DNA from: Alphaproteobacteria bacterium
GTDB taxonomy: Bacteria; Pseudomonadota; Alphaproteobacteria; JACZXZ01
DNA length: 64,000 bases
Assembly: GCA_035294245.1 (NCBI GenBank)
Contig: DATGLG010000068.1
Coordinates: 146,766-210,765, forward strand
Direction: 5' to 3'
Shown piece by piece: positions 8,073 through 55,131 of this stretch. The position numbers and the translations under genes are program-made. Numbering within the stretch: the first letter of the stretch is position 1; every line of letters starts with the position of its first letter. The notes under the pieces are model-generated. The model saw nothing but the letters and a program-made list of their open reading frames with translations. It was not told the DNA's origin and did no database searches.

Positions 8073-8168
8073 GATTATTCCAATTCTCGAAATTCTGACT
8101 TTCCATTTTGCCGAGTTCTCATTGGATTTGGCAACGATAACATAGCCGCCTCGCTTTCAGGAGGCCCC

Positions 8169-24562: not shown

Positions 24563-24725
24563 CTGGCCTTACCACCTGACCAGAAGAGCATAAAACCGGG
24601 AGGACGACAATTGCCGTGTCACGGGTGCCACACCGCGGGCTGCAGCGGTGCGTTCAACGCTGTGCGAGCATCCGCTCTGCCGCGCCGCGAAATCACCCGT
24701 TGACCCGATTGCCGCAACAAATGCC

Positions 24726-26165
24726 ATGGAAGCGACGCTGAGAAGCACGCGCCGATCGGCCTTGCGCCTGCATCCCGACCGTCTCTTCCCGCCGGGGACG
24801 GAAGCGCGCGCGATTGCGCGCCGGCTCTATGCGGAAGTGCGCGACCTGCCCATCGTGAGCCCCCACGGCCACACGAATCCGGCCTGGTTCGCCGAGAACG
24901 AGCCCTTTCCCGATCCGGCGACACTCTTCATCGTTCCCGACCACTACATTTTTCGCATGCTGTTCAGCCAGGGCATTCCCCTGGAAAGCCTGGGCGTGCC
25001 GCGCAGCGACGGCGGGCCGGTCGAGGCGGAGCCGCGACGGATCTGGCGCCTCTTCGCCGAGAATTTCCATCTCTTCAGAGGCACGCCGTCGCGGCTCTGG
25101 TTCGAGCACGCGCTGGTCGAGGTTTTCGGCGTCGAGGAGCGGCTTTCCGCCGCGACGGCGGATGCGATCTACGATCATCTCGAAGCCTGCCTGGCGCGGC
25201 CGGAGTTCCGCCCCCGCGCGCTCTTCGAGCGCTTCAATATCGAGGTCCTCGCCACGACCGAGTCCCCTCTCGATCCGCTCCAGCACCACAAGCGGCTCAA
25301 GGCGAGCGGGTGGCGCGGGCGTGTCGTCACCGCCTATCGGCCCGATCCGGTGGTCGATCCGGAATTCGACGGCTTCTCGGACAATCTCGCCAAGCTCGGC
25401 GCGATCACCGGCAAGGACACCGCGACCTGGACGGGCTATCTCGAGGCGCTGGCGGAGCGGCGCCAATTCTTCATAGCAATGGGCGCCACCTCGACCGATC
25501 ACGGCCATCCCACTGCGCGGACCGCCGATCTTCCGGCACGGGAGGCGGAAGCCCTCTTCGACAAGATCCGCCGCGGCGGCTGCACCGCGGCCGAGGCCGA
25601 GCTCTTCCGCGCGCAGATGCTGACCGAGATGGCGCAGATGAGCCTCGAGGACGGGCTGGTGATGCAGATTCATCCGGGCTCGTTCCGCAACCATAGCCCG
25701 GCGATCCATCGTGCCTTCGGCCGCGACAAGGGCTTCGATATCCCCATGGCGACCGATTACGTGCACGCCTTGAAGCCGCTGCTCGGCCGCTTCGGCACCG
25801 AGCGCAATCTCAGCATCATCCTCTTCACCCTCGACGAGACGAGCTACGCCCGCGAGCTGGCGCCGCTCGCGGGGGTCTATCCCGCCCTCAAGCTCGGTCC
25901 CGCCTGGTGGTTCTATGACAGCCCCGAGGGCATGAGGCGCTATCGCCAGGCGGTAACGGAGACCGCCGGCTTCTACAACACCGTCGGCTTCAACGACGAC
26001 ACGCGCGCCTTCCTCTCCATCCCGGCGCGCCACGATGTGGCGCGGCGCGTGGATTGCGCCTATCTCGCCGAGCTTGTCGCCGACCACCGCCTCGACGAGG
26101 ACGAGGCGCGCGAGGTAGCGGTGGACCTCGCCTATAACCTCGTCAAGAAGGCCTATAAGCTGTGA
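24726..26165 (+). CDS. uxaC: Glucuronate isomerase (uronate isomerase)
   Basis: ATG 24726 (MEATLRS...). Conserved ARRLY...LPIVSPHGHTNPAW N-terminus, full-length UxaC-like, about 479 aa. Confidence 0.85.
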   Translation: MEATLRSTRRSALRLHPDRLFPPGTEARAIARRLYAEVRDLPIVSPHGHTNPAWFAENEPFPDPATLFIVPDHYIFRMLFSQGIPLESLGVPRSDGGPVEAEPRRIWRLFAENFHLFRGTPSRLWFEHALVEVFGVEERLSAATADAIYDHLEACLARPEFRPRALFERFNIEVLATTESPLDPLQHHKRLKASGWRGRVVTAYRPDPVVDPEFDGFSDNLAKLGAITGKDTATWTGYLEALAERRQFFIAMGATSTDHGHPTARTADLPAREAEALFDKIRRGGCTAAEAELFRAQMLTEMAQMSLEDGLVMQIHPGSFRNHSPAIHRAFGRDKGFDIPMATDYVHALKPLLGRFGTERNLSIILFTLDETSYARELAPLAGVYPALKLGPAWWFYDSPEGMRRYRQAVTETAGFYNTVGFNDDTRAFLSIPARHDVARRVDCAYLAELVADHRLDEDEAREVAVDLAYNLVKKAYKL

Positions 26166-27679
26166 CGGCCGCCCCGCAAGCCCGGCGCGCAAGCGAGGGG
26201 CGGCCTCGCCTCGGCGCGCGCAGCCTCGCCGCGGCACCGCTCCATGTCGCGCGTCCGCGTTATGACCGGGCGGAGCTCACGGCGGGAATCGTCCATATCG
26301 GCATCGGCGCCTTTCACCGTGCGCACCAGGCCGTCTATGTCGAGGATCTGCTCGAGCGGCGCTTCGGCCCCTACGGCATCATCGGCGTCAGCCTGCGCAG
26401 CCCATCGGTGCGTGACGCGTTGGCGCCTCAGGACGGCCTCTACACGCTCATTCAGCGCGACGGGGCTCGCACTGATTTCCGGATCGTCGGCAGCGTCAAG
26501 CAGGTGCTCGTCGCCCCCGAGAATCCCGCGGCGGTCCTTGACGCGCTTACGGCGTCCGCCACGCGGCTTGTGACCATCACCGTGACGGAAAAGGGCTATT
26601 GCCTGGCGCCGGACGGCCGCCTTGATCTCGCGCATCCCGAGATCGTCCACGACCTCGCTCATCCGGCGACGCCGCGCAGCGCCGTCGGCTTTCTCGTCGA
26701 GGCGCTGCATCGCATCCGTGCCGCAGGACTGCGGCCGCCGACCATTCTCTCCTGCGACAATCTGCCCTCCAACGGCGATACCCTGCGCCGTGCGCTGCGC
26801 GATTTCGCGGCCCGCCGCGACGGCGAGCTCGCGCGTTGGATCGAGGATGCCGTTGCGGTCCCGGCCTCGATGATCGACCGCATCGTCCCGGCGACGACGG
26901 CCGCCGATCGCGCCGAAGTCGCAGAGGCCCTCGGGCTCGAGGATCGCGGGGCCGTCGTCGCCGAGCCGTTCCGGCAATGGGTCGTCGAGAGCGATCTCGC
27001 GCCGGGCATGCCGGCCCTCGACGAGGTCGGCGTCGAGCTCGTCACCAACATCGCCCCTTACGAGCGCATGAAGCTGCGCCTTCTCAATGGCTGCCACTCT
27101 GCCCTCGCCTATCTCGGCCAGCTCGCGGGCTATGAGTATGTCGCCGATGCCATGGGGGATCCGGCGCTGCGCCGCTTCCTCGACCGCATGATGCGGATGG
27201 AGATCGCCCCCACCCTGGCCGAATTTTCCCCCGGCCGCCTCGCGGATTATGCGGCGCAGGTCCTGGCCCGCTTCGGCAACCGCGCGGTCAAGCACCGCAC
27301 CTGGCAGATCGCCATGGACGGCTCCCAGAAGCTGCCTCAACGCCTTCTCGGCACCATCGCCGATCGCCTGCGCGCGGGCGCGCCTTTGGGGCGGCTGGCG
27401 CTGGCCGTCGCCGCCTGGATGCGCTTCCTCGGCGCGCGCGACGATCGCGGCATGCCCATCGCGATCTCCGATCCGCGCGCCGATGAGCTCATGGCTTGGG
27501 CGGCACCCGGGCAGAGCGACGCGGCGATCGTCGGCAATCTCCTCGACCGCTCCCGCATATTCCCGCCCGAGCTCGCGGCGAGCCCTGTTCTCCGACAGGC
27601 GCTGACGGGCGCCTTGTCGTCGTTGCGCGAGCGCGGCGCGAAGGAGGTCTTGCGCATGCCGGCTTACGGGGGGTCTTAG
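26162..27679 (+). CDS. Mannitol-dehydrogenase-family oxidoreductase, probable fructuronate (D-mannonate) / tagaturonate reductase (UxuB/UxaB-like)
   Basis: 505 aa, long-chain mannitol DH family (HIGIGAFHRAHQAVY...). Start overlaps the uxaC stop (ATGA). Confidence 0.75.
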   Translation: MTAAPQARRASEGRPRLGARSLAAAPLHVARPRYDRAELTAGIVHIGIGAFHRAHQAVYVEDLLERRFGPYGIIGVSLRSPSVRDALAPQDGLYTLIQRDGARTDFRIVGSVKQVLVAPENPAAVLDALTASATRLVTITVTEKGYCLAPDGRLDLAHPEIVHDLAHPATPRSAVGFLVEALHRIRAAGLRPPTILSCDNLPSNGDTLRRALRDFAARRDGELARWIEDAVAVPASMIDRIVPATTAADRAEVAEALGLEDRGAVVAEPFRQWVVESDLAPGMPALDEVGVELVTNIAPYERMKLRLLNGCHSALAYLGQLAGYEYVADAMGDPALRRFLDRMMRMEIAPTLAEFSPGRLADYAAQVLARFGNRAVKHRTWQIAMDGSQKLPQRLLGTIADRLRAGAPLGRLALAVAAWMRFLGARDDRGMPIAISDPRADELMAWAAPGQSDAAIVGNLLDRSRIFPPELAASPVLRQALTGALSSLRERGAKEVLRMPAYGGS

Positions 27680-27719
27680 GACCCCACCGCCCGAGAACAA
27701 CATCGAAGGGAGGAACACC

Positions 27720-28916
27720 ATGCGAGTGGTCACATCGACGAGCATCGCCGCCGCGCTCGGCGCCGCGGTTCTGATGGCCGGGGCCGGCCCCGGCCATGCT
27801 GCCGCATTGCCGCCCCTGCCGAAATCCCCCGTCACGATCAATATCGTCGATGTGGGCGGCCAGCTCGCCCTCACCCAGAAGGCGATCGAGGCCTACCAGA
27901 AGGCTCATCCCAAGCTGGTGTCGCGCTTCGTCTTCAACAAGGCGCCGGCACCGGAGCTCCCGGGCAAGCTGAAGGCGCAGCAGGCCGCCGGCCGCGTCGA
28001 CATCGACATGGTGCTGAGCGGCACCGACGCGATCTCCGCCGGGATGGAGCAGCATCTGTGGACGCGGATCCTCCCCGACTACGCGGCGAAATTCCCCAAT
28101 CTCGACCAGAACTACCTCCCGGGCGCGCTCGACATGCAGAAGCCGACGGAGGGCCAGGCCATCGAGGTCGTGTTCGCGACGGCGGGCCCGATGCTGGAAT
28201 ACGCACCCGAGCGCGTGAAGGATGTGCCCAAGACAACGGATGAGCTGCTTGCCTGGTGCAAGGCCCATCCCAACCGCTTCTTCTACGCGCGCCCGACGAA
28301 TTCCGGCCCCGGCCGCGCCTTCCTCCAGGGGCTCCCCTACGAGCTCGGCGACAGCAACCCGCGCGACCCGGTCAATGGCTGGGCGAAGACCTGGGCCTAT
28401 CTCAAGGCCCTCGACAGCTGCATCGAATATTACCCATCGGGCACCGGCGTCACCATGAAGGAGTTCGGCGAGGGCTCCCGTGACATCATCGCCTCGATGC
28501 CGGGGTGGGACATCTATCCGCGCGTGATCGGCACCGTGCCGAAATCCGCTAAGGTCACCATCCTCAGCGGGCCGGCTGGGTTCAAATGGGTCTCGGATGC
28601 CCAGTATGTCGCCATTCCCAAGGGGATCGCGCCCGAGAAGCTCGCCGTGGCCCTCGACTTGATCGCCTTCATGCTGGAGCCGAAGCAGCAGGCCTATGCC
28701 TGGGACGATGGCTATTTCTATCCGGGTCCGGCGGTCAAGAACGTGCCGCTCAGCATGGCGCCCCAGTCGAGCCAGGACGTCCTCAAGGAGTTCGGCCGTC
28801 CCGAATACGACCAGCTCATCGCCAAATACCCGATCATGTCGCCGCTCTTCGGCAATCCGCTCGTCGTCGCCTTCCATATGTGGGACGAGAAGATCGGTGC
28901 CCAGAAGATGAAATGA
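27720..28916 (+). CDS. ABC transporter periplasmic substrate-binding protein (PotD/AfuA-like family)
   Basis: Signal peptide MRVVTSTSIAAALGAAVLMAGAGPGHAAA. Followed by PotA/PotB/PotC-like components. Confidence 0.7.
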   Translation: MRVVTSTSIAAALGAAVLMAGAGPGHAAALPPLPKSPVTINIVDVGGQLALTQKAIEAYQKAHPKLVSRFVFNKAPAPELPGKLKAQQAAGRVDIDMVLSGTDAISAGMEQHLWTRILPDYAAKFPNLDQNYLPGALDMQKPTEGQAIEVVFATAGPMLEYAPERVKDVPKTTDELLAWCKAHPNRFFYARPTNSGPGRAFLQGLPYELGDSNPRDPVNGWAKTWAYLKALDSCIEYYPSGTGVTMKEFGEGSRDIIASMPGWDIYPRVIGTVPKSAKVTILSGPAGFKWVSDAQYVAIPKGIAPEKLAVALDLIAFMLEPKQQAYAWDDGYFYPGPAVKNVPLSMAPQSSQDVLKEFGRPEYDQLIAKYPIMSPLFGNPLVVAFHMWDEKIGAQKMK

Positions 28917-28942
28917 CGCGACGATGAGAGGAATGCCGGGCG

Positions 28943-30049
<1,107 letters not shown>

Positions 30050-30054
30050 GAAGA

Positions 30055-30921
30055 ATGATGACCGGCTCGCGCGAGACAGGCCTCGATCGCTCGGTGCTTC
30101 TGGTCGTGCCCGGCGTTCTCGTCGTGCTGCTGCTTTTCATCTATCCCTTCATTTACGGGCTTATCCTCTCCTTCGAGCCCAAGGCCGGGAGCATCTGGGC
30201 GAACTACGCCCGGTTTTTCTCCGAGCCGCGATTCAAGGACACCCTCGGCATCACCTTCTGGATCGCGGTGCCGGCGACCCTGATCAATCTTGGCCTCGCC
30301 ATTCCCATGGCGTTCAAGCTCCGCCGAGCAACACGATTGCAGCGCTTCGTCACCACGCTCCTGGTGATCCCGATCACGCTCGGGACCGTGCTGGTGGCCG
30401 AGGGGCTTCTCAATTATCTCGGGCCGCAGGGCTGGCTCAACCGCGTGCTCGTCGATCTCCATCTCGTACTGACGCCGGTGCGCCTGACCCATAATTACTG
30501 GGGCGTCCTGCTCTCATTGGTGATTACCGGATTTCCCTTCGCCTTTTTGCTGACGCTCTCCTACATCACCGGTATCGATCCGGTGCTGGCGCAGGCGGCC
30601 TCGACCCTCGGCGCCGGCCCCAGCCGCCAATTCCTCCATATCTACCTGCCGCTCCTGGCGCCGGGCCTCGCCATCACCTTCTGCCTCGCCTTCGTGCAGG
30701 CCTTCTCGGTGTTTCCTTCTGCCGTGCTCCTGGGCGCACCCGCCGGCCCCACCCGGGTCATCTCGATCGCCGCCTACCAGGCCGCCTTTGAGGATTACGA
30801 CTATGCCATGGCCTCGGCCGTCGCCATGATCATGGGCGCGGCGCAGCTCGTCATCGTCGTCGCCGTACTGGGGCTGCGCAACGTCTTCTATCGCGGCCCC
30901 GCCGCCGGAGCCAAGGGATGA
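30055..30921 (+). CDS. ABC transporter permease (PotB-like)
   Basis: ATG 30055 (MMTGSRETGL...), 6 TM. It is the coding C-terminal part of ORF 29146..30921. Confidence 0.8.
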   Translation: MMTGSRETGLDRSVLLVVPGVLVVLLLFIYPFIYGLILSFEPKAGSIWANYARFFSEPRFKDTLGITFWIAVPATLINLGLAIPMAFKLRRATRLQRFVTTLLVIPITLGTVLVAEGLLNYLGPQGWLNRVLVDLHLVLTPVRLTHNYWGVLLSLVITGFPFAFLLTLSYITGIDPVLAQAASTLGAGPSRQFLHIYLPLLAPGLAITFCLAFVQAFSVFPSAVLLGAPAGPTRVISIAAYQAAFEDYDYAMASAVAMIMGAAQLVIVVAVLGLRNVFYRGPAAGAKG

Positions 30922-31817
30922 GCGCCGCCGGCCTCGCCGCTCGTGCCGCCGATCCCGGCCTCGCCGGCGGGACCGGCGTCGTGCGCAAATCCTGGCGCGA
31001 GATCCTGTGGACGAGCTTCGTTTGGGCATTGATGGCCTTTTTCCTCATCAACGTCGCCGGCGTCATCGCCTCGGTCGCGGTCAACTCCTTCGGCACGCGC
31101 TGGTTCGCGACCTGGCTCCCCGCCGGCTTCACGACGCGCTGGTATTTCACTGCCTGGGACGATTTCCAGCTTTACGACGTGCTGGTCGTCACCTTCGAGG
31201 TCGTCTTCGCCGTCGTGATCATCTCGGTCGTCGTTGGCGTTCCCGCAGCCTACGCCCTGGCGCGGCGGGATTTCATCGGCAAGCGCGCGGTTCTCCTGCT
31301 CTTCGTCATTCCCCTCCTCGTCCCGCCCATCACCTATGGCATCCCGCTTGCGACGGTGCTTTATCAAAGCGGCGTGGGCGGAACCCTGGCCGGGGTCATC
31401 CTCGCCAATCTGGTGCCGTCGGTCCCCTTCGTCGTCCTCGTCATGACCCCCTTCATCGAGCAGGTGGATCCGAGGCTCGAGGCGGCGGCGCGTGTCTTCG
31501 GCGCCGGGCTCGGCCGCATGTTCGTCCATGTCCTCGTGCCGCTGCTGGCGCCGGGCATTCTGGCGGCGGCGCTGCTCGTCCTCGTGCGCACCATCGCCAT
31601 GTTCGAGCTCTCCTTCCTGACTGCGGGACCGGACAGCCAGACCCTCGTCGTCGTGCTCTATTATTCGGTGTTCGCCGCCGGAGTGCGGGCCGGGCAATCG
31701 ATCGACGCCATGGCGGTCATCTATATGGTGACCACTCTCGTCTGGCTCCTCGTCGCGCTTCGCTTCGTCAATCCGACCCAGCTCGTTACGCGCGTGAAGG
31801 AGCAGCGGCGAGCGTAG
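30918..31817 (+). CDS. ABC transporter permease (PotC-like)
   Basis: 299 aa multi-TM. Start overlaps the previous stop (ATGA). Confidence 0.8.
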   Translation: MSAAGLAARAADPGLAGGTGVVRKSWREILWTSFVWALMAFFLINVAGVIASVAVNSFGTRWFATWLPAGFTTRWYFTAWDDFQLYDVLVVTFEVVFAVVIISVVVGVPAAYALARRDFIGKRAVLLLFVIPLLVPPITYGIPLATVLYQSGVGGTLAGVILANLVPSVPFVVLVMTPFIEQVDPRLEAAARVFGAGLGRMFVHVLVPLLAPGILAAALLVLVRTIAMFELSFLTAGPDSQTLVVVLYYSVFAAGVRAGQSIDAMAVIYMVTTLVWLLVALRFVNPTQLVTRVKEQRRA

Positions 31818-31868
31818 CGGCCGATATCGGCGGCTCGATGCCCGCGCGCCGCCGCAGAGGAGTAGATC

Positions 31869-33077
31869 GTGAAGATCAAGGAAGCCCGCGTCATCATTAC
31901 CTGCCCCGGGCGGAATTTCGTCACCCTCAAGATCGTGACGGATGATGGGCTCCATGGGCTCGGCGATGCGACCTTGAACGGGCGCGAGCTCGCCGTCGCC
32001 GCCTATCTGAGCGAGCACGTGGTTCCTTGTCTCATCGGTCGCGACGCCGATCGGATCGAGGACATCTGGCAATATCTCTATCGCGGGGCTTACTGGCGGC
32101 GCGGGCCGGTGACGATGTCCGCCATCGCCGCCGTGGATACGGCGCTTTGGGACATCAAGGCCAAGGCCGCCAACATGCCCCTCTATCAGCTTCTCGGCGG
32201 CCGCAGCCGCGACGGCGTCATGGTCTATGGCCACGCCAATGGCACCGACATCGAGGCGTGCGTCGATGAGGTCGCGCGCTATATCGCGCTCGGCTATAAG
32301 GCCATCCGCGCGCAATGCGGGATTCCCGGCTTGGCCTCGACCTATGGCGTGGCGCGCAACAAGATGTATTACGAGCCGGCCGACGCGGCCCTGCCGACCG
32401 AGAACCTGTGGTCGACGGAGAAATACCTCGATTTCGTTCCGAGCCTGTTCGAGAGGCTGCGCGTGAAGTTCGGCGCGGAGCCGCATCTGCTCCATGACGC
32501 GCATCATCGGCTGAAGCCCATCGAGGCGGCGCGGCTCGGGAAGGCGCTCGAGCCCTACCGGCTCTTCTGGCTCGAGGACGTTACCCCCGCCGAGAACCAG
32601 GAAAGCTTCCGGCTGATCCGCCAGCACACCACCACTCCCCTCGCCGTCGGCGAGGTGTTCAACTCGATCCACGACTGCCGCGCGCTGATCGGCGAGCAGC
32701 TCATCGATTACATCCGGGCGACGGTCGTTCATGCCGGCGGGATCAGCCATATGCGCCGCATCGCGGCACTGGCCGAGCTCTACAATGTGCGGACGGGCAG
32801 CCACGGCGCCACCGATCTCTCGCCGGTCTGCATGGGCGCGGCACTGCATTTCGACATCTGGGTGCCGAATTTCGGCATCCAGGAATATATGCGGCATACC
32901 GAGGCGACGGATGCGGTCTTCCCCCATGCCTATTCCTTCAAGGACGGCTATCTCTTTCCCGGCGAGGCGCCTGGGCACGGGGTCGATATCGACGAGAAGC
33001 TCGCCGCGAGATTTCCGTATCGGCGGGCCTATCTGCCTGTCAATCGCCTCCTCGACGGCACCATGCATGATTGGTAG
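31869..33077 (+). CDS. manD: D-mannonate dehydratase of the enolase superfamily (ManD)
   Basis: GTG start. [47 protein letters not shown]... is the characteristic ManD N-terminus, with the enolase-superfamily barrel following. Confidence 0.85.
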
Positions 33078-33090
33078 GAGCGGAGCCAGA

Positions 33091-34335
33091 ATGGTGGAGA
33101 TTCCGCGAACGATCGAGGAATGGCGCGCCTGGCTTGGCGACACGGTGCTGCCCTATTGGGTGGTGGTGGTGGCGGTGGCGTCCGAGCCCGCGGGTTATGT
33201 CGAGTATCTGACGCGCGACGGCGTGCGGGACGCGCGAGCTGAGAAGACGCCCCTCGTCACCGCCCGTCTGATTTATGTTTTCAGCCATGCCCATGTGCTT
33301 GGGCTCGGTCGCGATGTGCTCAAGGCTGCGGAGCACGGCTTCCGCTTTCTCGTCGAGCGCTGCTGGGATGCGCGTGACGGCGGATTCTTCCACAAGGTCG
33401 CCGCGGACGGCACACCCATCGATCGGCGCAAGGATGCCTACGATCACGCCTTCGCGCTCTTCGCCATGGCTTGGCTCCATCGCGCGACCAGGAGACGGGA
33501 GCCGCTCGATTGGGCCGCGCGAATCATCGCCTATATGGACGAAGCGCTCACCGATCCCACCGGCGGCTATCGCGAGCATATCGGGACCGGCGACCCGCAG
33601 CCGCTGCCGCGACGGCAAAATCCCCATATGCACCTGCTCGAGGCGTTTCACGCGCTCTTCGAGGCGACCGGCGATGAGGCTTGGCTTACGCTCGCAAGTG
33701 CAATCATCGATCTTTTCGAGCGGCATTTCTTCGATCGGGAGACGGGCAGTCTCGGCGAGTTCTTCACGGCCGATTGGCAACCGGCGCCCGGCGCCCTCGG
33801 GGTGTTGCGCGAGCCGGGACACCATTTCGAATGGGTTTGGCTGCTCCACCACCACGCGCGCCTCACAGGATCGGATGCCAGCTTGGTGGCCGCCGATCGC
33901 CTCTACCATTTCGCCCTTCGTCATGGCCTCGACAAGCGACCCGGCCGGATTCCCGCCGCGTTCGACGAGATCGACCGCATGGGCCGCCTGGTTACGGAGA
34001 GCAAGCTGCTGTGGCCTCAGACCGAGGCGGTCAAGGCCTTTCTCGCGCGCTGGGAATTTCTCGAGGACCGGGACGCCGCGCGGCGAGTCCTCGATCATAC
34101 AGTCCTGCTCTTCCGCTGGTTTCTCGTCGACGAGACGGCGCGCTGGCGAAACCGCCTCGCCGCCGACGGCCGCGAGATACCGGGCGAGCTGCCGGTGCGC
34201 GTCCTCTATCACCTCTTTCTCGGTCTCGCCGAGCTGGTTCGCCTGTGGCCGACGCTTCCGGCCGAAGAGCTGCGGCGGCTCGGTTCTTCGATCCGCGGGA
34301 GTAGCGCAGCCACGGCCTCGATGCTCCCGACATAG
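33091..34335 (+). CDS. N-acylglucosamine 2-epimerase (AGE) superfamily epimerase/isomerase
   Basis: ATG 33091 (MVEIPRTIEEW...), 414 aa, (alpha/alpha)6-barrel family motifs (...HMHLLEAF..., ...GHHFEWVWLL...). Coding part of ORF 32731..34335. Confidence 0.65.
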   Translation: MVEIPRTIEEWRAWLGDTVLPYWVVVVAVASEPAGYVEYLTRDGVRDARAEKTPLVTARLIYVFSHAHVLGLGRDVLKAAEHGFRFLVERCWDARDGGFFHKVAADGTPIDRRKDAYDHAFALFAMAWLHRATRRREPLDWAARIIAYMDEALTDPTGGYREHIGTGDPQPLPRRQNPHMHLLEAFHALFEATGDEAWLTLASAIIDLFERHFFDRETGSLGEFFTADWQPAPGALGVLREPGHHFEWVWLLHHHARLTGSDASLVAADRLYHFALRHGLDKRPGRIPAAFDEIDRMGRLVTESKLLWPQTEAVKAFLARWEFLEDRDAARRVLDHTVLLFRWFLVDETARWRNRLAADGREIPGELPVRVLYHLFLGLAELVRLWPTLPAEELRRLGSSIRGSSAATASMLPT

Positions 34336-36660: not shown

Positions 36661-37143
36661 TCAGGCACCGCTCAGGAATGCCGCGACCTCGGGGTGGGAT
36701 TTGAGCTCTCGCAGGTCCTCATTGGACGGCAATTGAGGTTTATCCCTCATCGCATTGACCATGCAGAGAAATCCAAGAGGCTCGCCGGCCGTCGCGCGGA
36801 ACTGGTGCCAGGTCCATGCGGGAATCGTGATGAGATCGTAAGTCCCCACGTTCTGAACCGTGTCGCCGATCAGGCAGTGGCCGCGGCCGCGGAAGATCAT
36901 GACCGCGTGCGTATGCTCGTGGCGCTCCAGAGAGGAGTAGCCGCCGGCCTCCATCTCGAAATAGCGCAGCTCGCAACCGAAGTCGGCGCCCGCGAACAAC
37001 ACCTGCCGCGAAATGGCCTTGAACGGCGCGCTGCCCTCCTCCTTGTAGGGGAGGCGATCCGTCGCCTCCCACCGGTAATTCTGGAAGCGACGCAGACGCG
37101 CGGCTGCTGGCGCGGCCGCATCCATCGGCTTGCCCTTATGCAT
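36661..37143 (-). CDS. Cupin-domain protein
   Basis: 160 aa with cupin motifs (…LERHEHTHAVMIFRGRGH… / …TIPAWTWHQF…). Overlaps the RLP gene by 8 nt. Confidence 0.65.
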   Translation of the reverse strand: MHKGKPMDAAAPAAARLRRFQNYRWEATDRLPYKEEGSAPFKAISRQVLFAGADFGCELRYFEMEAGGYSSLERHEHTHAVMIFRGRGHCLIGDTVQNVGTYDLITIPAWTWHQFRATAGEPLGFLCMVNAMRDKPQLPSNEDLRELKSHPEVAAFLSGA

Positions 37144-38242
37144 GTGCCCTCATCACGGCAGCCCCTTGGGCGACGCGGGCCACGAAGGCCGCTGTTTCCG
37201 CTGTCAGGCGCTCGCACGCAGCGAGCAGCCCTCCGCCGATCAGCAACATTACATCGGCACCATAGAAGTCAAGCATCTCCGGCACCCGCGCGACGGTCAT
37301 GCCCCCCGCCGGCACCGGCACGCATGCGCGCTTGTCGGCCCAGGGCTCGACGGCCGCCAGCGCCAATCTCCGGCAGGTTTCCGGCGTATAGCCGAAGCGG
37401 CCCCCATGATTGGGGAAGATCGTGGCGTCGGCTCCCAGCAAACGAAAGAGCTTGCCGAGTAGAAGCGGCGGCGCCAGGCGCGCCGCGCCCGCCATCGCCG
37501 GATGGGCCATGAACGCCATGCCCGGATATTCGCGCACCAGCGCATCGAAAGCGGGAAGGCCCACGATCATGGGCGCGATGAGGACCGTATCGACCCCGGC
37601 CTCCCGCGCTATCGCCATCTGCGCACGCAGCCGGTCCAGGTTGCCCGACAGGCTCGGGACGTAGCGGGTGGCATGCCCGGTCGCGCGATTGGCCTCGCGC
37701 ACGGCAGCGGCGCAGGCGTGCACCCGCTCGGCGAAGGGGCTGTAGGCCTGGTCGGCCAGGCCGTGATCATCCTTGATGTAATCGAGCCCGCCGCGGGCGA
37801 GCCGGCCGGCCAACTCTGCCAGCGCTGCGGGCGGCAGACCCTGGGGCTTCAAGGCCGAGCAAGTCATGGCGCGTCCTTCGGCACCGACCCGTTGACGCAA
37901 ACCGGTGAGGCCATGGCAGGGGCCACCGAAGGCCGCAAGCAGCTCCACAGAGAAGACGACATCGGCGAGCGTCACATCGTCGTGGATCGAGGTGTTGCCG
38001 AACAGCATGTTCATGAGCTGCCCGGCCTCGAGCCCCGTGGTCGCAGTGGCGATGCCGATGCGGACTTCGAACAGTCCCGCTGCAATCTCCTCGATACCCT
38101 CGACACGGCCGATGATTTCTGCGAGCACGAAGCGATCCTCGATCGCCGCGACGGGCATTTCGACGCTTTGCTCGACCGCGATGGCGCGGGCGCGCGCCTC
38201 AATCGATCCCGCCTCGCTGCGAACCCGATAGATCGCCGTCAT
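37136..38242 (-). CDS. RuBisCO large-subunit-like protein (form IV RLP)
   Basis: Preferred start 38240-38242 (MTAIYRVRS...), 368 aa. The RuBisCO loop motif G-L-D-Y-I-K-D-D-H aligns to GxDFxKDDE, with E replaced by H. TIM-barrel C-terminal domain. ORF 37136..38560 has an Arg-rich, non-coding-looking in-frame leader. Confidence 0.75.
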   Translation of the reverse strand: MTAIYRVRSEAGSIEARARAIAVEQSVEMPVAAIEDRFVLAEIIGRVEGIEEIAAGLFEVRIGIATATTGLEAGQLMNMLFGNTSIHDDVTLADVVFSVELLAAFGGPCHGLTGLRQRVGAEGRAMTCSALKPQGLPPAALAELAGRLARGGLDYIKDDHGLADQAYSPFAERVHACAAAVREANRATGHATRYVPSLSGNLDRLRAQMAIAREAGVDTVLIAPMIVGLPAFDALVREYPGMAFMAHPAMAGAARLAPPLLLGKLFRLLGADATIFPNHGGRFGYTPETCRRLALAAVEPWADKRACVPVPAGGMTVARVPEMLDFYGADVMLLIGGGLLAACERLTAETAAFVARVAQGAAVMRAHA

Positions 38243-38267
38243 GCGCGAGGTCACGGCCTCTTCTCCC

Positions 38268-39287
38268 TCACGCCTGAGGCGCGCCTGCGCCGGCCGCGGA
38301 TTTCCTCGGGCGCGCAAAATACGGGGCGAGATTGGCGCGGATGCGCTCGAGCACCGGAACCCGCGGGTCGGGAAGCGGAAACGCCTCGCCGGTAATCCGC
38401 TCGAACACGCTGACGTAGATGCGGGCGGCTTCGAGGATGATCTCGCGCGGGATCTCCGGGATCGGGTCCCGGTAGGGATCGCAACGGGCGACGACCCAGC
38501 TGCGCACAAAGTCCTTGTCGAAGCTCTCCGGCTTCTCGCCGGCGGCGAACCGGCGCCCATAGCTCGCGGCGAACCAATAGCGGCTGCTGTCGGGCGTATG
38601 GACCTCGTCGGCGAGGATGATGCGGCCGACGTCGTCGAAGCCGAACTCGTATTTGGTATCGACGAGGATGAGGCCGTGGCGTTCCGCGATCTCGCGGCCG
38701 CGCGCGAAGAGCGCCAACGCCAGATCGCACGCGGTCCGCCATTGCGCCGCCGTGAGCAATCGGCGGCCGATGATGTCCTCCGCCGTCAGCGGCTCGTCAT
38801 GCCCGCCATCGGCCGCCTTCGTCGTCGGCGTGATGATGGTGGCCGGAAGCTTCTGGTTCTCGCGCATGCTGTCGGGGAAGCGGACGCCGTACATCTCGCG
38901 CCGGCCCGCCTTGTACATGCTCCAGATCGAGGTGGCGGTGGTCCCCGCCAGGTAGTCGCGCACGACGACTTCTACGGGGAAGATGCTCAGCCGCCGGCAC
39001 ACGACGACGTTGGGATCGGGGTACTCGATGACGTGGTTGGGGCAGACGTCCTGCGTCGCCTCGAACCAGAAGCGGGCGATTTGCGTCAGCACTTGTCCCT
39101 TGAGGGGGATCGCGGTGAGGATGCGATCGAAGGCGCTCAGCCGGTCGCTCGCGATAAGAATGCGCCGCCCGTCCGGAAGGTCGTAATTATGCCGCACCTT
39201 GCCGCGATAGTGGCCGGGAAGCTCGGGAATGGTGGCGTCCCAAAGCGCCTGGTCGGCATAACGCGCGAGATCGGCCGTTGCGAGCAT
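38268..39287 (-). CDS. SAICAR-synthetase (PurC) family ATP-grasp-like ligase, long form
   Basis: 339 aa. Contains DRLSAFD, …QIARFWFE…, [11 protein letters not shown] and [12 protein letters not shown], which are the classical PurC motifs. About 30-aa C-terminal extension. 25 nt upstream of the RLP. Confidence 0.75.
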
Positions 39288-43879: not shown

Positions 43880-44171
43880 GGCTTCCCCTCAAGTCAAGCG
43901 CAGACCGCTCACTTCCCCCAACCGTCCGCAGATGTCGGCGAGAATGGCGTGATCGACGAATGCGGGCCGGGCTTCCGGGCGAGCATTATCCGTGAAGAGG
44001 AATAGCGCCCCTTGTGATCAATTTGTGGTTCGGCCGCGATCCTGAAAATTCCAGCATTTCCAACTTTTAACGCGCAATCCGCGAGGCCGGGACAGTCACA
44101 GGTTGATCACTGGCTCGACCAGGTCCCCCGATGTTCCATGTGGCTGCCTATGGCCCATATCGAAGCGGGGG

Positions 44172-45347
44172 ATGCGCGTGAGCGCGACCGTGGTCCAATC
44201 CGAGCCTCGACCGTCGACGCCGGCGCCCCAGGCGCCGCGCTTCGAGCGCGTGGCGGTGACGTCCGTGTTCGGCGATCCGCGGAGTCCCCGCACCTGGTCC
44301 GGCGCGCCCAGCAACGTCATCTCGGGGCTCGAGCGCCTGGGGATCAGCGTCGAAGGGATATGGCCGAAACTCACCCGTTGGCAGAAGCTGCGGTTGGCGG
44401 CGGGTCAAATTCTCGCCGGCTATGGCCGCCCGATCACCAGCGAGCAGATCATCCGCGGCCGCGGCGCGCGCGAAATTCGTGCGCGTCAGCTCGCGGCGGC
44501 CGTCGAGCGATTGGGCGTCCGCCACGTTTTGCACCTGGGAACCCTCGATCTGCCTGCCCTCGATCTCCTGCGCGGCGTCAAGCATTACCTTTATTGCGAC
44601 CAGACCTGGGCGCTGTCGATGCGCTATCGCCCCGATCGCAACAGCTACACGGCGAAGGCGGTCGAGGAATACGAGCGCCTGGAGCGTGATTCCCTGCGCG
44701 GCCTCGATCATGTCTTCACCTTCGGGGCCTATGTGCGCGACAACATCGTCGAGCATTACGGGGTCTCTCCGGAGCGGGTGACGACGGTGGGCTCCGGGAT
44801 GGGCAATGTCGAGCCCTATTTCGGCCCCAAGGAATACGGACAGGCAAAGCTGCTTTTCGTCGCCAAGCACCTTTTCAAGGCGAAGGGCGGCGCCCTCCTA
44901 GTCGACGCCTTCCTTCGCGCCCATCGCCGCCGCCCCGACTTGACGCTGACAATCGTCGGCGACGAAAGGAGCCGCCACTTCGTGCCCTCCCACACGGGCA
45001 TCGTCTTCCGCGCGCACCTGCCTTGGCTGGAGCTGCAGCAGCTCTATCGCACCGCCAGCCTGCTGACGCAGCCGATGCTGAACGATCCCTGGGGCCAGGT
45101 CTACCTGGAGGCGCTGGTGTCGCGCACGCCGGTCCTGGGACTCAATCGCAATGGCCTGCCCGAGATCACCGAAGGCGGGCGTCACGGCTTTCTCGTGGAC
45201 GAGGCCGATCCTCAGGCCTTGGCGGACGCCATCCTCGCGGCGGTCGAGAATCCCCGCCGGCTGGCGGAGATGGGAATGAGCGGCCAGCGCCACGCCCTCA
45301 ACACCTATTCATGGAATCGCGTGGCGGAGCGAATCGCCTACCGGTGA
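44172..45347 (+). CDS. Glycosyltransferase family 4
   Basis: ORF 44103..45347. ATG 44172 (MRVSATVVQ...) preferred, after a GGGGG RBS. GT4 C-terminal motifs (…EGGRHGFLVDEADPQALADAI…). Confidence 0.65.
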   Translation: MRVSATVVQSEPRPSTPAPQAPRFERVAVTSVFGDPRSPRTWSGAPSNVISGLERLGISVEGIWPKLTRWQKLRLAAGQILAGYGRPITSEQIIRGRGAREIRARQLAAAVERLGVRHVLHLGTLDLPALDLLRGVKHYLYCDQTWALSMRYRPDRNSYTAKAVEEYERLERDSLRGLDHVFTFGAYVRDNIVEHYGVSPERVTTVGSGMGNVEPYFGPKEYGQAKLLFVAKHLFKAKGGALLVDAFLRAHRRRPDLTLTIVGDERSRHFVPSHTGIVFRAHLPWLELQQLYRTASLLTQPMLNDPWGQVYLEALVSRTPVLGLNRNGLPEITEGGRHGFLVDEADPQALADAILAAVENPRRLAEMGMSGQRHALNTYSWNRVAERIAYR

Positions 45348-45437
45348 GTACGGGCGGGTTGCCGTCTCGATATCGCTCGGCGTGAGTGCCGATCAACGGA
45401 AATCGGCAAAATCCATCGGATCAACGATGAAAGGGAC

Positions 45438-46532
45438 ATGAGCATGTCGGATAAAGTTGCTCTGATAACGGGCGTGACGGGTCAGGACGGCGCGTATTTG
45501 GCCGCGTTCCTGCTTCAGCGGGGATATATCGTCCATGGTGTCAAGAGGCGCTCCTCCTCCCTCAACACGGCTCGGGTCGATCATCTCTATCTCGACAGGC
45601 ACGAGAAGAACCTGCGGTTCTTCCTGCATTACGGCGATATGACCGATTCGACGGGGCTGATTCGCCTGATCGACGAGGTACGTCCGACCGAGATCTACAA
45701 CCTCGCCGCCCAGAGCCATGTCCAGGTCAGCTTCGAGACGCCGGAATACACGGCCAATACCGACGCCCTCGGGACCTTGCGGGTGCTCGAGGCGATCCGA
45801 ATTTTGAAGATGCAGGACCACGTGCGCTTCTACCAGGCGTCCACCTCGGAGCTTTTCGGCAAGGTGCTGGAGACGCCACAGCGCGAGATTACGCCCTTCT
45901 ACCCGCGCAGCCCCTATGCAGCGGCGAAGCTCTATGCCTATTGGATCACCGTGAACTATCGCGAGGCTTACGGCATCCATGCCTCGAACGGGATCCTGTT
46001 CAATCACGAATCCCCCACCCGCGGCGAGACGTTTGTCACGCGCAAAATCACGCGGGCCGTCGCGGCCATTGAGCACCGGATGCAGGATCGGCTCTATCTT
46101 GGCAACATCGACGCCAAGCGCGACTGGGGCCACGCCCGCGACTACGTGGAGGGCATGTGGCTCATCCTGCAGCAGGACGAGCCGGACGACTACGTGCTGG
46201 CGACCGGAGAGACGCACTCGGTGCGCGAATTCGTCGAGCTGGCGTTTCGGTGCATCAATCGCCCGATCGTGTGGGAAGGCAAGGGCGCGAGCGAGAAGGG
46301 CTTTTGCACGAGAACGGGGGAGATCCTCGTCGCGATCGATCCGGCCTATTACCGGCCGACCGAGGTCGATCTCCTGCTCGGCAGCCCGGAGAAGGCACGC
46401 AAGAAGCTCGGGTGGCGACACAAGACGAGCTTCGAGCAGCTCGTCGCGGAGATGGTCGAAGCCGATCGCGCCGCCTTGCTGCAGACCCACGTCGACTTCA
46501 CCCAAGAGAGGCGCCTGCGCGCCGCGCAATGA
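45438..46532 (+). CDS. gmd: GDP-mannose 4,6-dehydratase
   Basis: [19 protein letters not shown]… with [10 protein letters not shown] and the Gmd-specific …[19 protein letters not shown]…[11 protein letters not shown]…. Confidence 0.9.
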
Positions 46533-46653
46533 TGCGGCGTCCGGCGCGCTATCGGGCGGCCGCTACGAGCGCGGGCGGCCGCCCCCGCCCGCCCCTCCTT
46601 GGGAAATCGCGGCTATTCGCCCGGATCCTTCCGTGTAGCTACAACCCAGATAG

Positions 46654-47877
46654 CTACAACGCCGCGATCGCGGCGATGAGCTGCTTGCCGCGGCTCGACC
46701 AGTCGAACTTGTCGCGGCACTCGGCATAGGCGTGGTCTTGCAGACTGTTGAGGAGCTTGAGGTCGTCCATCACGTTGAGCACACCCTGGGCGAGCGCCGC
46801 GTGATCGGGATAAAGGAGAATGCTGCGGTCCTGCCGAAGCGGGACACCGGCGACTGATCCGTCGAGCGCCAGGATCGGCAATCGGTTGAAGACATATTCG
46901 AGGACCTTAAGCTTGAACCCGCCCCCGTTGCGCTCCGGAACGATGGCGATGCGCGCCGCGTCCATGTAGTCGGTTACATCGCCGACCGTTCCCGTGAACA
47001 CGGTGGCCGTCACCTTCTTGCGCAGTTGATTGAGGAAGGACTCCTCGGCGCTCCCGATCACCTGAAGCTCCGCCCGATGAGAGGCGAATACCGGATCGGC
47101 AACGCTGACGAACTCCTCGAGATTCATGCGCTTGGCGACCCAGTCGAAGCTCCCGACGATGACGGCGCGACGAGGAAAATCGGTCGTGATCCTGCGGCCG
47201 GCCACGTGGCGCCCCTGATAGCCGGGCGTCAGGATATCGATCCGCTTGTCCGGTCGGCGGGCCTTGTAGAGGGAGCCGTCCTCGGGGGTGATGGCCGTCA
47301 CGAGATCGACCGCGTCCACCAGGCGCCGCTCGAGCAGACGGACCTTCAGCGCATCTAGCCACATCGCCTGCCGCTTCAGCGGCTGCTCCTGGTTGCTCGC
47401 GATCTGGGCCCGTATGCTCTCCTCGTGGTTATGGGAGATATAGACGAGCTTCGGCCTCCGTCGCTTGTTGGAATAATGCTGCAACACCGGCCGCATGGCC
47501 CAGCCGACGGAAATGCCGTCGAAGACGATGCAGTCCCAGCCATCCTGCCGGAGCAGGTCGCCGAGCAGCCTCTGCATGTCCGCGGTCTGGCATCGATGGG
47601 CGATATGGGGAAGGCACGAGGCTAGGCTTGCCCAGCGAGAGAGCGGCTGATGATCGGCCAGCCACCACCGCACATTGCCGTCGACCGCGTGCGTTCGATT
47701 CGATTCCGGCCGGCTTAGCCCGAGCACATCGACGAGGGCGCCCGCATTCGCGAGCGCCTCGATCAAGCCGCCCGAGTAGATGAACTGGCCGTTATGCCGC
47801 GGCTCCGGATCGGCAAGGGTTAGCCATAGACAGCGCATTTGTCGCACTGATCTAGCAGTGGGCCCATCAATAGGCAT
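46654..47877 (-). CDS. Glycosyltransferase family 1/4
   Basis: 407 aa. GT-B C-terminal domain (…AIVPERNGGGFKLKVLEY…). Confidence 0.65.
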   Translation of the reverse strand: MPIDGPTARSVRQMRCLWLTLADPEPRHNGQFIYSGGLIEALANAGALVDVLGLSRPESNRTHAVDGNVRWWLADHQPLSRWASLASCLPHIAHRCQTADMQRLLGDLLRQDGWDCIVFDGISVGWAMRPVLQHYSNKRRRPKLVYISHNHEESIRAQIASNQEQPLKRQAMWLDALKVRLLERRLVDAVDLVTAITPEDGSLYKARRPDKRIDILTPGYQGRHVAGRRITTDFPRRAVIVGSFDWVAKRMNLEEFVSVADPVFASHRAELQVIGSAEESFLNQLRKKVTATVFTGTVGDVTDYMDAARIAIVPERNGGGFKLKVLEYVFNRLPILALDGSVAGVPLRQDRSILLYPDHAALAQGVLNVMDDLKLLNSLQDHAYAECRDKFDWSSRGKQLIAAIAAL

Positions 47878-49378
47878 AACGGCCGGTGAAGCCGCCGAGA
47901 ACCGTCCGGGCGATGATGCGGAGGTCTAAGAGGATCGACCAATGCTCGATGTAATAGAGGTCATGCTCCACTCGCTTCTGAATCTGCTCGATGGTCTGGG
48001 TCTCGCCTCGCCAGCCGTTCACCTGCGCCCAGCCCGTGATCCCCGGCTTCATGCGATGCCGGGCGTCGTAGTACCGGACCGCGTCCTGGTAGAGCAGACC
48101 GCCCGCCTTGGCGGCGAGCGCATGCGGCCGTGGGCCCACGATGGACATCTCGCCACGCAGGACATTGATGAATTGCGGCAGCTCGTCGAGGCTGGTCTTG
48201 CGCAGGAAGGCACCGATCCTCGTCACGCGCGGATCGTTCCGGCGCGTGAGCTGCTCGGCATTATCGTCCCGCGCATGATGATACATGGTGCGGAACTTGA
48301 AGATCTCGATGAGCTCGTTATTGAGCCCATAACGCTTCTGCTTGAAGAAGACCGGCCCGCGGCTGCTCAGCTTGATGAGAGCGGCGATGGCGAGCATCAT
48401 GGGCGAGATCAAGGCGAGGATGAGTGCCGCCAGCAGCCGATCCTCGATCTCCTTCGCGACCCATTTCCAATCATGGAGCGGGTTGTCGGCGATAGTGAGG
48501 AAGCTGAGCCCCCCCATATGGCTGATCCCGCAGGTGGAGAGCTGAAACCCGAACTGGTCGGGGCAGAGGCGCACGTCGACGGGAAGCACCGTAAGCTTGT
48601 TAAGGATTTCCGTGAGGCGCCAATCGGCCGACAGCGGCAGCGCGACGATTACCGTATCAATCCGGTGTGAGCGCGCGTCGCTTACCAGATCGTCGACGTT
48701 TCCCAGGATCGGATGTCCCATGCAACGCGGCGGAAGCCGGCTCAGCCGGTCATCATAAACGCCGAGGATCTTGAGGTCGGGATCCGATTTGACATTGAGC
48801 TGCCGCAGGAGCCGCTGCCCAATCGCGCCGGCGCCGACGACCGCGACGACCTTGCCAAGGCTTCCTTTCGTCCGAGCGTGGCGGATAAAAAGAAGCACGG
48901 CGACTCGGATTCCCCAGAGGAGCAGGACTCCGCCGGCGAACCAGGCCACCAGCCATCGCCGCTCCGACGGACCGAATATTCCCGCGCCGAGGCTGATCGC
49001 CGCCAGGATGGCGGTGACGGCAAGGCAGGCCCCCGCCGACCTGCAGAACGAGGCGCCGGGAGCGCTCAAGGTCCCGAAGCGGTAGGCGCCGGCCCAATAG
49101 AGCAAATTGACGAGCAGAACGGCGCCCAGCAGGCCGGCCACAGCCATGACCCGCCACGCATCGCCTACTTGGCCCGCTATCCAAATGGTCGACGCCGTTG
49201 CCACGGCCACCATGCCCAAGCCGTCGGCGATGCCGACCAGGCCGCTCACAATTGCGCCGGACACCTGTCTCGGAGCTTCGGCGAAGATGCGTGGCTTCGC
49301 CGGTCGCCGATGTCTTTCCGCCGCTCGCCCTCCCTCGACGGCGCGTAGCAAGGGTTTCGATGCAGCCTGGCTTTTCAT
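47867..49378 (-). CDS. Polyprenyl-phosphate hexose-1-phosphate transferase (WbaP/ExoY-like initiating sugar transferase)
   Basis: Preferred start 49376-49378 (MKSQAAS...). N-terminal TM segments, a central Rossmann-like segment ([11 protein letters not shown]) and a C-terminal bacterial sugar-transferase domain (…KFRTMY…[22 protein letters not shown]…). The ORF track starts at 49543. Confidence 0.8.
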
Positions 49379-49547
49379 CGCATGATCCCGAACTCTCGGC
49401 ATGTCGTGGGAATCCACGGCCATGGCCCCTGCAGGCTTCGGCGCGCAGCGGCCTGGCAGGTTCGGGTTTGCCATATCGGGGCGGGCTTGGTCTTGTGACC
49501 AAGTTGGGGCAGCGACGGTTGCAGGAATCACTCCCGGGATCAATCCG

Positions 49548-50774: not shown

Positions 50775-50775
50775 T

Positions 50776-51999: not shown

Positions 52000-52006
52000 G
52001 CACGGC

Positions 52007-54915: not shown

Positions 54916-55131
54916 GTCGTCACTCGTTTTTGCTGTGTATCCGCGGCCGCATATGCCTCGCGGCCGCTCGAAAGGGAGCGGCTCCTCCAAGGGAGTAGTC
55001 CGATGAGGGGTTGTACCAACAAATCCCCCCGCCCTGTTGTGACCAAACCGGGGCCGGAATGGGCCCGATTCCGAAGCCGCAATGGGGCTTGGCGGGCTTG
55101 GGCGACGGCGACCAAGAGGGACCAGCCGGCG

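What the first reader, a model, noticed from the sequence alone, without database searches (positions are those of the whole stretch)
37136..38242. RLP with a non-canonical metal-ligand motif (KDDH instead of KDDE) and a short N-terminal domain
The sequence G-L-D-Y-I-K-D-D-H-G aligns with the RuBisCO GxDFxKDDE loop. The carbamylatable Lys and the first Asp are kept, but the Glu ligand is replaced by His. The protein is only ~368 aa if it starts at MTAIYRV. The in-frame upstream extension is Arg-rich and looks non-coding, and starting there would overlap the PurC-like gene. This divergence argues for a reaction different from characterised RLPs.
Basis: seen in the sequence. Interest (0 to 1): 0.55.

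Follow-up and report, generated by a model that had tools for sequence, protein, structure and literature searches.

The report
Known DeepYkr RuBisCO-like isomerase with cupin
This gene is an ordinary member of a known RuBisCO-like enzyme family that recycles the sulfur by-product methylthioadenosine; its odd KDDH motif and short N-terminus occur in every family member examined here, including a crystallised, biochemically characterised one.

Summary
A minus-strand gene at 37136..38242 encodes a 368-aa RuBisCO-like protein (RLP). Its GGLDYIKDDHG stretch aligns with the RuBisCO GGLDFTKDDE loop: K201, D203, K175, H294 and N123 are kept and E204 is His. Its N-terminus is about 40 residues shorter than form I RuBisCO.

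The inference of a reaction unlike any characterised RLP is not supported:
- KDDH is invariant in 28/28 aligned homologues and in all 80 species loci fetched.
- It is also present in PDB 3QFW, the Rhodopseudomonas palustris RLP (E 1e-126, 55% identity, TM 0.90-0.94). This is the DeepYkr-type RLP1, shown in vitro to be a 5-methylthioribulose-1-phosphate 1,3-isomerase.
- The next gene, a cupin overlapping the RLP stop by 8 nt, matches Rru_A2000 (PDB 3JZV, E 4e-57), the 1-methylthioxylulose-5-phosphate methylsulfurylase.
- This cupin follows the RLP in 79 of 80 species. PurC adjacency is unique to this organism (0/80).

The short N-terminus is family-wide. The likely start is GTG 38254, four codons upstream of the ATG, with a GGAG 8 nt before it.

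Verdict: the RLP-cupin pair of the MTA-isoprenoid shunt. Already known, low interest. The catalytic role of the His remains open in what I could read.

The parts
37136..38254 (-). RLP gene (DeepYkr-type form IV RuBisCO-like protein). It is 372 aa if it starts at GTG 38254 and 368 aa from ATG 38242.
   Evidence: ORF. Pfam RuBisCO_large E 1.6e-23. PDB 3QFW E 1.2e-126. AlphaFold model pLDDT 87.8 with TM 0.90/0.94 to 3QFW. The GTG start is supported by homologue N-termini of the form M-x-S-R-[IL]-T-A and by a start codon 25-29 codons before the EQSVE motif in 70/78 loci.
37763..37774 (-). Codons for K157-D158-D159-H160. These correspond to RuBisCO K201-D202-D203-E204, with His replacing the Glu metal ligand.
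   Evidence: Sequence; alignments. Invariant in 28/28 homologues and present in all 80 species loci.
38263..38267 (-). Shine-Dalgarno-like GGGAG. Its GGAG core lies 8 nt before GTG 38254, and the element directly follows the PurC stop codon (38268-38270).
   Evidence: Read directly from the sequence.
36661..37143 (-). Cupin gene, whose start overlaps the RLP stop by 8 nt. It is a homologue of the R. rubrum 1-methylthioxylulose-5-phosphate methylsulfurylase Rru_A2000.
   Evidence: Pfam Cupin_2. PDB 3JZV 'Rru_A2000' E 4.4e-57 and 3KGZ E 1.3e-50. Immediately downstream and co-oriented in 79/80 species loci. Rru_A2000 is named as the MTXu-5P sulfurylase in PMC4958253.

Best explanation
The gene encodes a DeepYkr-clade RuBisCO-like protein, a 5-methylthio-D-ribulose-1-phosphate 1,3-isomerase. 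[quoted passage not shown] The RLP moves the carbonyl to give 1-methylthioxylulose-5-P, plus some of the ribulose epimer. The cupin then uses a thiol to release methanethiol and 1-deoxyxylulose-5-P. Shown here: the fold, orthology to the crystallised R. palustris enzyme, retention of K175, K201, D203, H294 and N123, the family-wide His at position 204, and the conserved cupin partner. Inferred: that K157 is carbamylated and binds the metal together with D159 and H160; that catalysis runs through metal-stabilised enediolate intermediates as in other superfamily members; and that this protein has the same substrate. KDDH and the short N-domain are clade signatures, not signs of a new reaction.
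For: The best solved relative is 3QFW, the R. palustris RLP, at E 1.2e-126 and 425.8 bits over residues 2-359. It carries the same IKDDHGLADQ, and the next best hit scores only 122.6 bits. The AlphaFold model superposes on 3QFW at TM 0.90/0.94, rmsd 1.6-1.7 A, 55% identity. 3QFW is distinct from 2QYG, which is labelled rlp2, and R. palustris has two RLPs. RLP1 (DeepYkr, RPA2169) converts MTRu-1P to MTXu-5P and MTRu-5P at 3:1 with kcat 1.3 per s, and the adjacent cupin RPA2170 is the methylsulfurylase (PMC5893883). [quoted passage not shown] The cupin lies directly downstream in 79/80 species loci, and no other neighbour is conserved in more than 13/80. A 78%-identical homologue is already annotated by JGI as 'S-methyl-5-thioribulose 1-phosphate isomerase'. 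R. rubrum and R. palustris enzymes are only 53% identical yet isofunctional, so 55% identity lies within the family's functional span. The query departs from positions that are at least 85% conserved at only 5 sites, none of them among the active-site positions mapped.
Against: No enzymatic data exist for this protein. mtnP and mtnA are not in the 64-kb window, although they are also unlinked in R. palustris (RPA4820/4821 versus RPA2169/2170). I could not obtain the R. rubrum RLP sequence to confirm KDDH in the founding member. The strain and locus tag behind 3QFW were not verified. No NCBIfam model claims the protein: the best, an MtnW model, scores 160.5 bits against a cutoff of 409.
Confidence: 0.85

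Rival explanations
1. One reading: the E204-to-His change and the truncated N-domain mark an RLP that catalyses a reaction unlike any characterised RLP.
For: The motif does differ from RuBisCO, from MtnW and from the RLP next to a four-carbon acid sugar kinase gene, all of which have KDDE. All NCBIfam RLP and RuBisCO models score far below their cutoffs.
Against: The same motif and length occur in 3QFW, the R. palustris DeepYkr-type RLP, whose enzyme has a characterised activity. They are invariant across the family. The partner cupin is the known pathway enzyme.
Confidence: 0.05
2. The enzyme class is the same, but the main physiological substrate is different or additional. One example would be 5-deoxyribulose-1-phosphate from 5'-deoxyadenosine, which the same 1,3-isomerisation would turn directly into 1-deoxyxylulose-5-P.
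For: This is only chemical analogy. None of the 7 papers that held at least two of the search terms 5-deoxyribulose, RuBisCO-like and 1-deoxyxylulose appeared, from their titles and the two I opened, to test this.
Against: The strictly conserved cupin, whose known role is to remove the methylthio group, argues that the methylthio substrate is the selected one.
Confidence: 0.07
3. It is a bona fide CO2-fixing RuBisCO, or an MtnW-type diketo-methylthiopentyl-phosphate enolase.
For: It shares the fold and keeps K175, K201, D203 and H294.
Against: K177, R295, H327, K334 and S379 of RuBisCO are replaced by Q, P, I, R and A. No small-subunit gene is adjacent and no phosphoribulokinase domain was found in the window genes annotated. 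The residue that aligns with MtnW Lys98 is Asn83. The MtnW models score 160.5 and 116.3 bits against cutoffs of 409 and 513.6, and the type III RuBisCO model 108.1 against 497.45. No mtnX or mtnB genes lie next to it.
Confidence: 0.01
4. It is a decayed or truncated pseudogene whose true N-terminus was lost through a frameshift or assembly error.
For: The stop-to-stop frame extends 204 codons upstream of the EQSVE motif, about 180 codons beyond the ATG start.
Against: The extension has non-coding composition in this frame and is the 3' end of an intact PurC gene. An identical 368-aa protein is called on 13 independent contigs. In 31/78 homologous loci an in-frame stop lies within 44 codons of the EQSVE motif, so the family N-terminus is short. 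The crystallised 3QFW chain is 378 residues long.
Confidence: 0.01

Closest known systems
DeepYkr-clade RLP: R. palustris RLP1 (RPA2169; PDB 3QFW) and R. rubrum RLP (Rru_A1998), 5-methylthioribulose-1-phosphate 1,3-isomerase of the MTA-isoprenoid shunt
   Same: The fold, the length of about 370 aa, the IKDDHGLADQ motif, and the ALKPQG, AHPAMAGA, FPN(H/Y)GGRF and P(V/T)PAGG motifs are shared. A co-oriented cupin lies downstream. mtnA and mtnP are unlinked, as in R. palustris.
   Different: Identity to 3QFW is only 55%. The host is an uncultured soil alphaproteobacterium. Here the pair sits directly behind purC, which no other species examined shows. Activity is untested.
Short RLPs next to split transketolase genes (Brucella anthropi pOANT04, Ponticoccus alexandrii, Vibrio nigripulchritudo plasmids)
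   Same: They have a short N-terminus (371-381 aa), N123, K175, K201, D203 and H294 equivalents, and Arg at the K334 position. B. anthropi has His at position 204 (KDDH) and Ponticoccus has KEDH. B. anthropi also has mtnK and mtnA in the same cluster.
   Different: Identity is only 28-39%. There is no cupin partner; instead they are flanked by split transketolase or TPP-enzyme genes. Vibrio has KEDD. I found no published function for them.
YkrW/MtnW RLP (2,3-diketo-5-methylthiopentyl-1-phosphate enolase; PDB 2OEK, 2ZVI, 4NAS)
   Same: It belongs to the same superfamily and to methionine-salvage metabolism, with the K175, K201, D203 and H294 equivalents kept.
   Different: MtnW keeps KDDE, has Lys where the query has Asn83, is about 410 aa long, and lies with mtnX and mtnB. 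Identity is about 30%.
Form I-III RuBisCO large subunit
   Same: It shares the N-domain plus TIM-barrel fold (TM 0.87-0.91 normalised to the query), the carbamylatable Lys and one Asp ligand.
   Different: The query's N-terminus is about 40 residues shorter and the C-terminal tail is absent. E204 is His, and K177, R295, H327, K334 and S379 are replaced.

Membership tests
DeepYkr RLP (MTRu-1P 1,3-isomerase) | RuBisCO large-subunit fold (N-domain plus alpha/beta barrel) | tested here: met
   Pfam PF00016 E 1.6e-23. AlphaFold model pLDDT 87.8, and Foldseek probability 1.00 for RLP and RuBisCO structures.
DeepYkr RLP (MTRu-1P 1,3-isomerase) | Closest to a characterised DeepYkr member rather than to another RLP clade | tested here: met
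   3QFW (R. palustris RLP) scores 425.8 bits; the next hits are 122.6 bits (MtnW types) and 101.7 bits (rlp2, 2QYG). TM to 3QFW is 0.90/0.94.
DeepYkr RLP (MTRu-1P 1,3-isomerase) | Clade active-site signature: N123, K175, K201, D203 and H294 kept; E204 His; K177 Gln; K334 Arg; S379 Ala | tested here: met
   Residue table. These columns are invariant in 28/28 homologues. The same motifs appear in the 3QFW alignment.
DeepYkr RLP (MTRu-1P 1,3-isomerase) | Adjacent, co-oriented cupin orthologous to Rru_A2000/RPA2170 | tested here: met
   The cupin at 36661..37143 overlaps the RLP stop by 8 nt. 3JZV matches at E 4.4e-57. The arrangement holds in 79/80 species.
DeepYkr RLP (MTRu-1P 1,3-isomerase) | The genome supplies the substrate (mtnP or mtnN/mtnK, plus mtnA) | not testable with these tools
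   Only 64 kb is available, and no IF-2B or PNP_UDP_1 domain gene was found in it.
DeepYkr RLP (MTRu-1P 1,3-isomerase) | Catalyses MTRu-1P to MTXu-5P and MTRu-5P (3:1) | not testable with these tools
   This needs an enzyme assay. The reference activity is in PMC5893883.
Bona fide RuBisCO (forms I-III) | Complete set of catalytic residues, including K177, E204, R295, H327, K334 and S379 | tested here: not met
   These are Q134, H160, P248, I275, R282 and A312. The type III model scores 108.1 bits against a cutoff of 497.45.
YkrW/MtnW enolase | Lys at the position of G. kaustophilus K98 and a KDDE metal motif; score above the NCBIfam cutoff | tested here: not met
   The query has Asn83 and KDDH. 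Scores are 160.5 and 116.3 bits against cutoffs of 409 and 513.6. That K98 is the catalytic base is my recollection of Imker et al. 2007, which I did not re-read.

The most novel reading that the evidence does not exclude
This soil alphaproteobacterial RLP, or the whole His-204 lineage, might use the His for something not yet described. It could give a metal preference other than Mg2+, or act as the proton shuttle of the 1,3-isomerisation. The enzyme might also accept a second substrate, 5-deoxyribulose-1-phosphate, giving 1-deoxyxylulose-5-P directly. Nothing I could read defines the role of this His, and nothing here excludes such a role.
Probability: 0.1. Interest if true: 0.45.

Novelty: already known. 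Interest (0 to 1): 0.12.

Why it matters
It matters little as a discovery. The gene pair marks this organism as probably able to run the oxygen-independent MTA-isoprenoid shunt, which salvages sulfur as methanethiol and feeds 1-deoxyxylulose-5-P to isoprenoid synthesis. The practical value is for annotation. NCBI names close homologues only generically ('RuBisCO large subunit C-terminal-like domain-containing protein'), and no NCBIfam model captures this protein. The signature KDDHGLAD plus a downstream Rru_A2000-like cupin could name at least 573 species-level genomes. The mechanistic role of His in place of the Glu metal ligand is a modest open question for enzymologists.

Tried and rejected
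- I tried to read the primary enzymology and review papers: Imker 2008 (by PubMed id and PMC2597038), Erb 2012 (PMC3475740), Warlick 2012 (PMC3490199 and PMC3517812), and Tabita 2007/2008 (PMC2168653, PMC2606765). None is held. Whether the literature already discusses E204His, I therefore cannot say.
- I could not get the R. rubrum RLP sequence.
- A tblastn search of plasmids for a canonical RuBisCO using the query found only RLPs. Hit H27 proved to be an RLP next to a four-carbon acid sugar kinase gene.
- PurC as a functional partner is rejected, because it is adjacent in 0/80 species.
- A longer N-terminus is rejected.
- The promoter and terminator scan of 36300-40400 gave nothing above the shuffled background.
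- The MAFFT default alignment put RuBisCO N123 one column away from N78. The L-INS-i alignment pairs G122-N123 with G82-N83 and with MtnW K98. I use the latter, but a structural superposition was not possible with these tools.
- The supplements of the 2026 rubisco survey are not held.

Full report
**What is there.** The finding's coordinates hold a minus-strand ORF, 37136..38242, of 368 aa beginning MTAIYRV. The stretch RGGLDYIKDDHGLADQ is present, and K157-D158-D159-H160 are encoded at 37774..37763. Pfam places the RuBisCO large-chain catalytic domain on residues 113-361 (E 1.6e-23). All NCBIfam RuBisCO and RLP models score far below their cutoffs: the two MtnW models 160.5 against 409 and 116.3 against 513.6, type III 108.1 against 497.45, and OiaX 64.5 against 700.

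**Is KDDH the active-site loop?** Yes.
- I fetched an annotated form I large subunit from a Nitrobacter hamburgensis plasmid. With a constant offset of -7 it carries the expected residue at all 18 spinach-numbered active-site positions I checked.
- Aligned to it, the query retains E60 (E24), N123 (N83), K175 (K132), K201 (K157), D203 (D159), H294 (H247), G380/G381 and G403/G404.
- It replaces E204 by H160, K177 by Q134, R295 by P248, H298 by A251, H327 by I275, K334 by R282 and S379 by A312.
- HMMER independently aligns K157/D159/H160 with K173/D175/E176 of the G. kaustophilus MtnW structure 2OEK.
- An AlphaFold model built on 28 homologues (pLDDT 87.8, pTM 0.88) puts K132, K157, H247, G313-G314 and G336-G337 at or just after the C-terminal ends of predicted strands, and R282 in the loop after strand 273-277. 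I read these strands as barrel strands 1, 2, 5, 7, 8 and 6, as in RuBisCO.

**Is it unusual?** No, this is what the family looks like.
- The best solved structure is 3QFW, 'Rubisco-like protein from Rhodopseudomonas palustris'. It matches at E 1.2e-126 over residues 2-359 and has the same IKDDHGLADQ and a 378-residue chain.
- The model superposes on it at TM 0.90/0.94, rmsd 1.6-1.7 A, 55% identity.
- 3QFW is not rlp2, which is 2QYG. R. palustris has two RLPs, RLP1 of the DeepYkr clade and RLP2 of the Photo clade (PMC5893883).
- In 28 aligned homologues of 68-100% identity, K157, D158, D159 and H160 are invariant.
All 80 loci retrieved have KDDH; most were retrieved through that pattern, so this count is not independent.
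- An identical 368-aa protein is already in public databases on 13 contigs from soil metagenomes. A 78%-identical one is annotated by JGI as S-methyl-5-thioribulose 1-phosphate isomerase.
- The query departs from positions that are at least 85% conserved at only five sites (I44, I64, S98, L256, C343), none among the active-site positions mapped.

**Context.** The next gene downstream (36661..37143, minus strand) starts 8 nt before the RLP stop and is a cupin.
- It matches PDB 3JZV, 'uncharacterized protein Rru_A2000', at E 4.4e-57, and 3KGZ at E 1.3e-50.
- Rru_A2000 is the cupin-type 1-methylthioxylulose-5-P sulfurylase, and Rru_A1998 is the DeepYkr RLP of R. rubrum (PMC4958253).
- In R. palustris the corresponding pair is RPA2169/RPA2170. 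RLP1 converts MTRu-1P to MTXu-5P and MTRu-5P at 3:1 with kcat 1.3 per s, the same as the R. rubrum enzyme although the two are only 53% identical (PMC5893883).
- Across 80 species loci the cupin lies directly downstream on the same strand in 79; the exception is a contig that ends there.
- No other neighbour is shared by more than 13 of 80 loci.
- PurC is a genuine PurC (PRK12607, 474 bits against a cutoff of 371) but is adjacent in 0/80 other species. Its closeness here is organism-specific.
- mtnA and mtnP are not in the window. They are also unlinked in R. palustris.
- KEGG-based surveys already track both enzymes (PMC10663253).

**Start codon and N-terminus.**
- The 474-aa ORF version is an artefact. 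Its extra 106 codons have GC1/2/3 of 0.55/0.82/0.71 and 21% Arg, while the same DNA read in the PurC frame has GC3 0.85.
- Homologues start with M-x-S-R-[IL]-T-A. In 70 of 78 loci a start codon lies 25-29 codons before the EQSVE motif. In 31 of 78 an in-frame stop lies within 44 codons of it, which rules out a long N-terminus for the family.
- In the window the ATG is at -23 and a GTG (38254) at -27. That GTG gives MTSRMTAIYRV and has a GGAG 8 nt upstream, directly after the PurC stop.
- I therefore favour a 372-aa product from GTG 38254. Relative to form I RuBisCO the N-terminus is 36-40 residues shorter (N123 corresponds to residue 83, or 87 counting from the GTG start), and the C-terminal tail is missing.

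**Mechanism.** By orthology, the protein most likely isomerises 5-methylthioribulose-1-P to 1-methylthioxylulose-5-P. The cupin then releases methanethiol and 1-deoxyxylulose-5-P. This is the MTA-isoprenoid shunt. It is inference, not shown here, that K157 is carbamylated, that the metal is held by the carbamate, D159 and H160, and that the chemistry runs through enediolates. Published assays contained Mg2+ and, in the coupled steps, Mn2+, so they do not reveal what the His does.

**Comparison and novelty.**
- The His at position 204 extends beyond the cupin-linked clade. Short RLPs next to split transketolase genes carry KDDH (Brucella anthropi, where mtnK and mtnA are in the same cluster), KEDH (Ponticoccus) or KEDD (Vibrio).
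- MtnW and the RLP next to a four-carbon acid sugar kinase gene keep KDDE.

The finding is a correct observation of a clade signature, attached to an incorrect inference of novelty. I rate it already known, with low interest. The residual open point is the catalytic role of the His, which I could not find addressed in the papers available to me.

Noticed in passing
L089:683-6104 (Brucella anthropi pOANT04); L091:1971-5047; L090:1998-6617: A sister group of short RLPs (371-381 aa, 28-39% identical to the window protein) sits next to split transketolase or TPP-enzyme genes instead of a cupin. In B. anthropi the cluster is mtnK-mtnA-transketolase N-transketolase C-RLP. The metal motifs are KDDH, KEDH and KEDD. 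I found no published function for them.
   Followed up: partly
window 38268..39287 (-): A bona fide purC (PRK12607, 474 bits) ends 13 nt before the likely RLP start, with no terminator-like site between, so it is probably co-transcribed. This adjacency is seen in none of 80 other species.
   Followed up: yes
L087:3992-6539 (Terrarubrum flagellatum plasmid): On this plasmid an RLP (53% identical) and cupin pair is followed by cysE (serine O-acetyltransferase), a further link of the module to sulfur assimilation.
   Followed up: no
window 7251..8795 (+) and 10923..11558 (-): There are two glutathione S-transferase genes. The first ORF, as called, has about 310 N-terminal residues with no Pfam match ahead of the GST domains, so it may be mis-started. 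They lie about 26-30 kb from the RLP-cupin pair, whose cupin uses a thiol such as glutathione. No link was tested.
   Followed up: no
window 44103..57604: This is an exopolysaccharide-type cluster. It contains several GT4 glycosyltransferases, a Bac_transf priming transferase, a Wzz/tyrosine-kinase-like protein, a Poly_export protein, an NAD-dependent epimerase/dehydratase-family protein (also matching GDP-mannose 4,6-dehydratase) and a mannose-1-P guanylyltransferase/isomerase.
   Followed up: no
window 24648..34335: This is a hexuronate/sugar-acid catabolism block, with UxaC glucuronate isomerase, mannitol-dehydrogenase family, ABC transporter, MR_MLE enolase-superfamily, GlcNAc 2-epimerase-like and GntR regulator genes. 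It is unrelated to the RLP.
   Followed up: no
window 37136..38242, residue 343: The query has Cys where 24 of 27 homologues have Arg (AACERL versus AARERL), in the C-terminal helix. This is its only non-conservative departure from a strongly conserved position.
   Followed up: no
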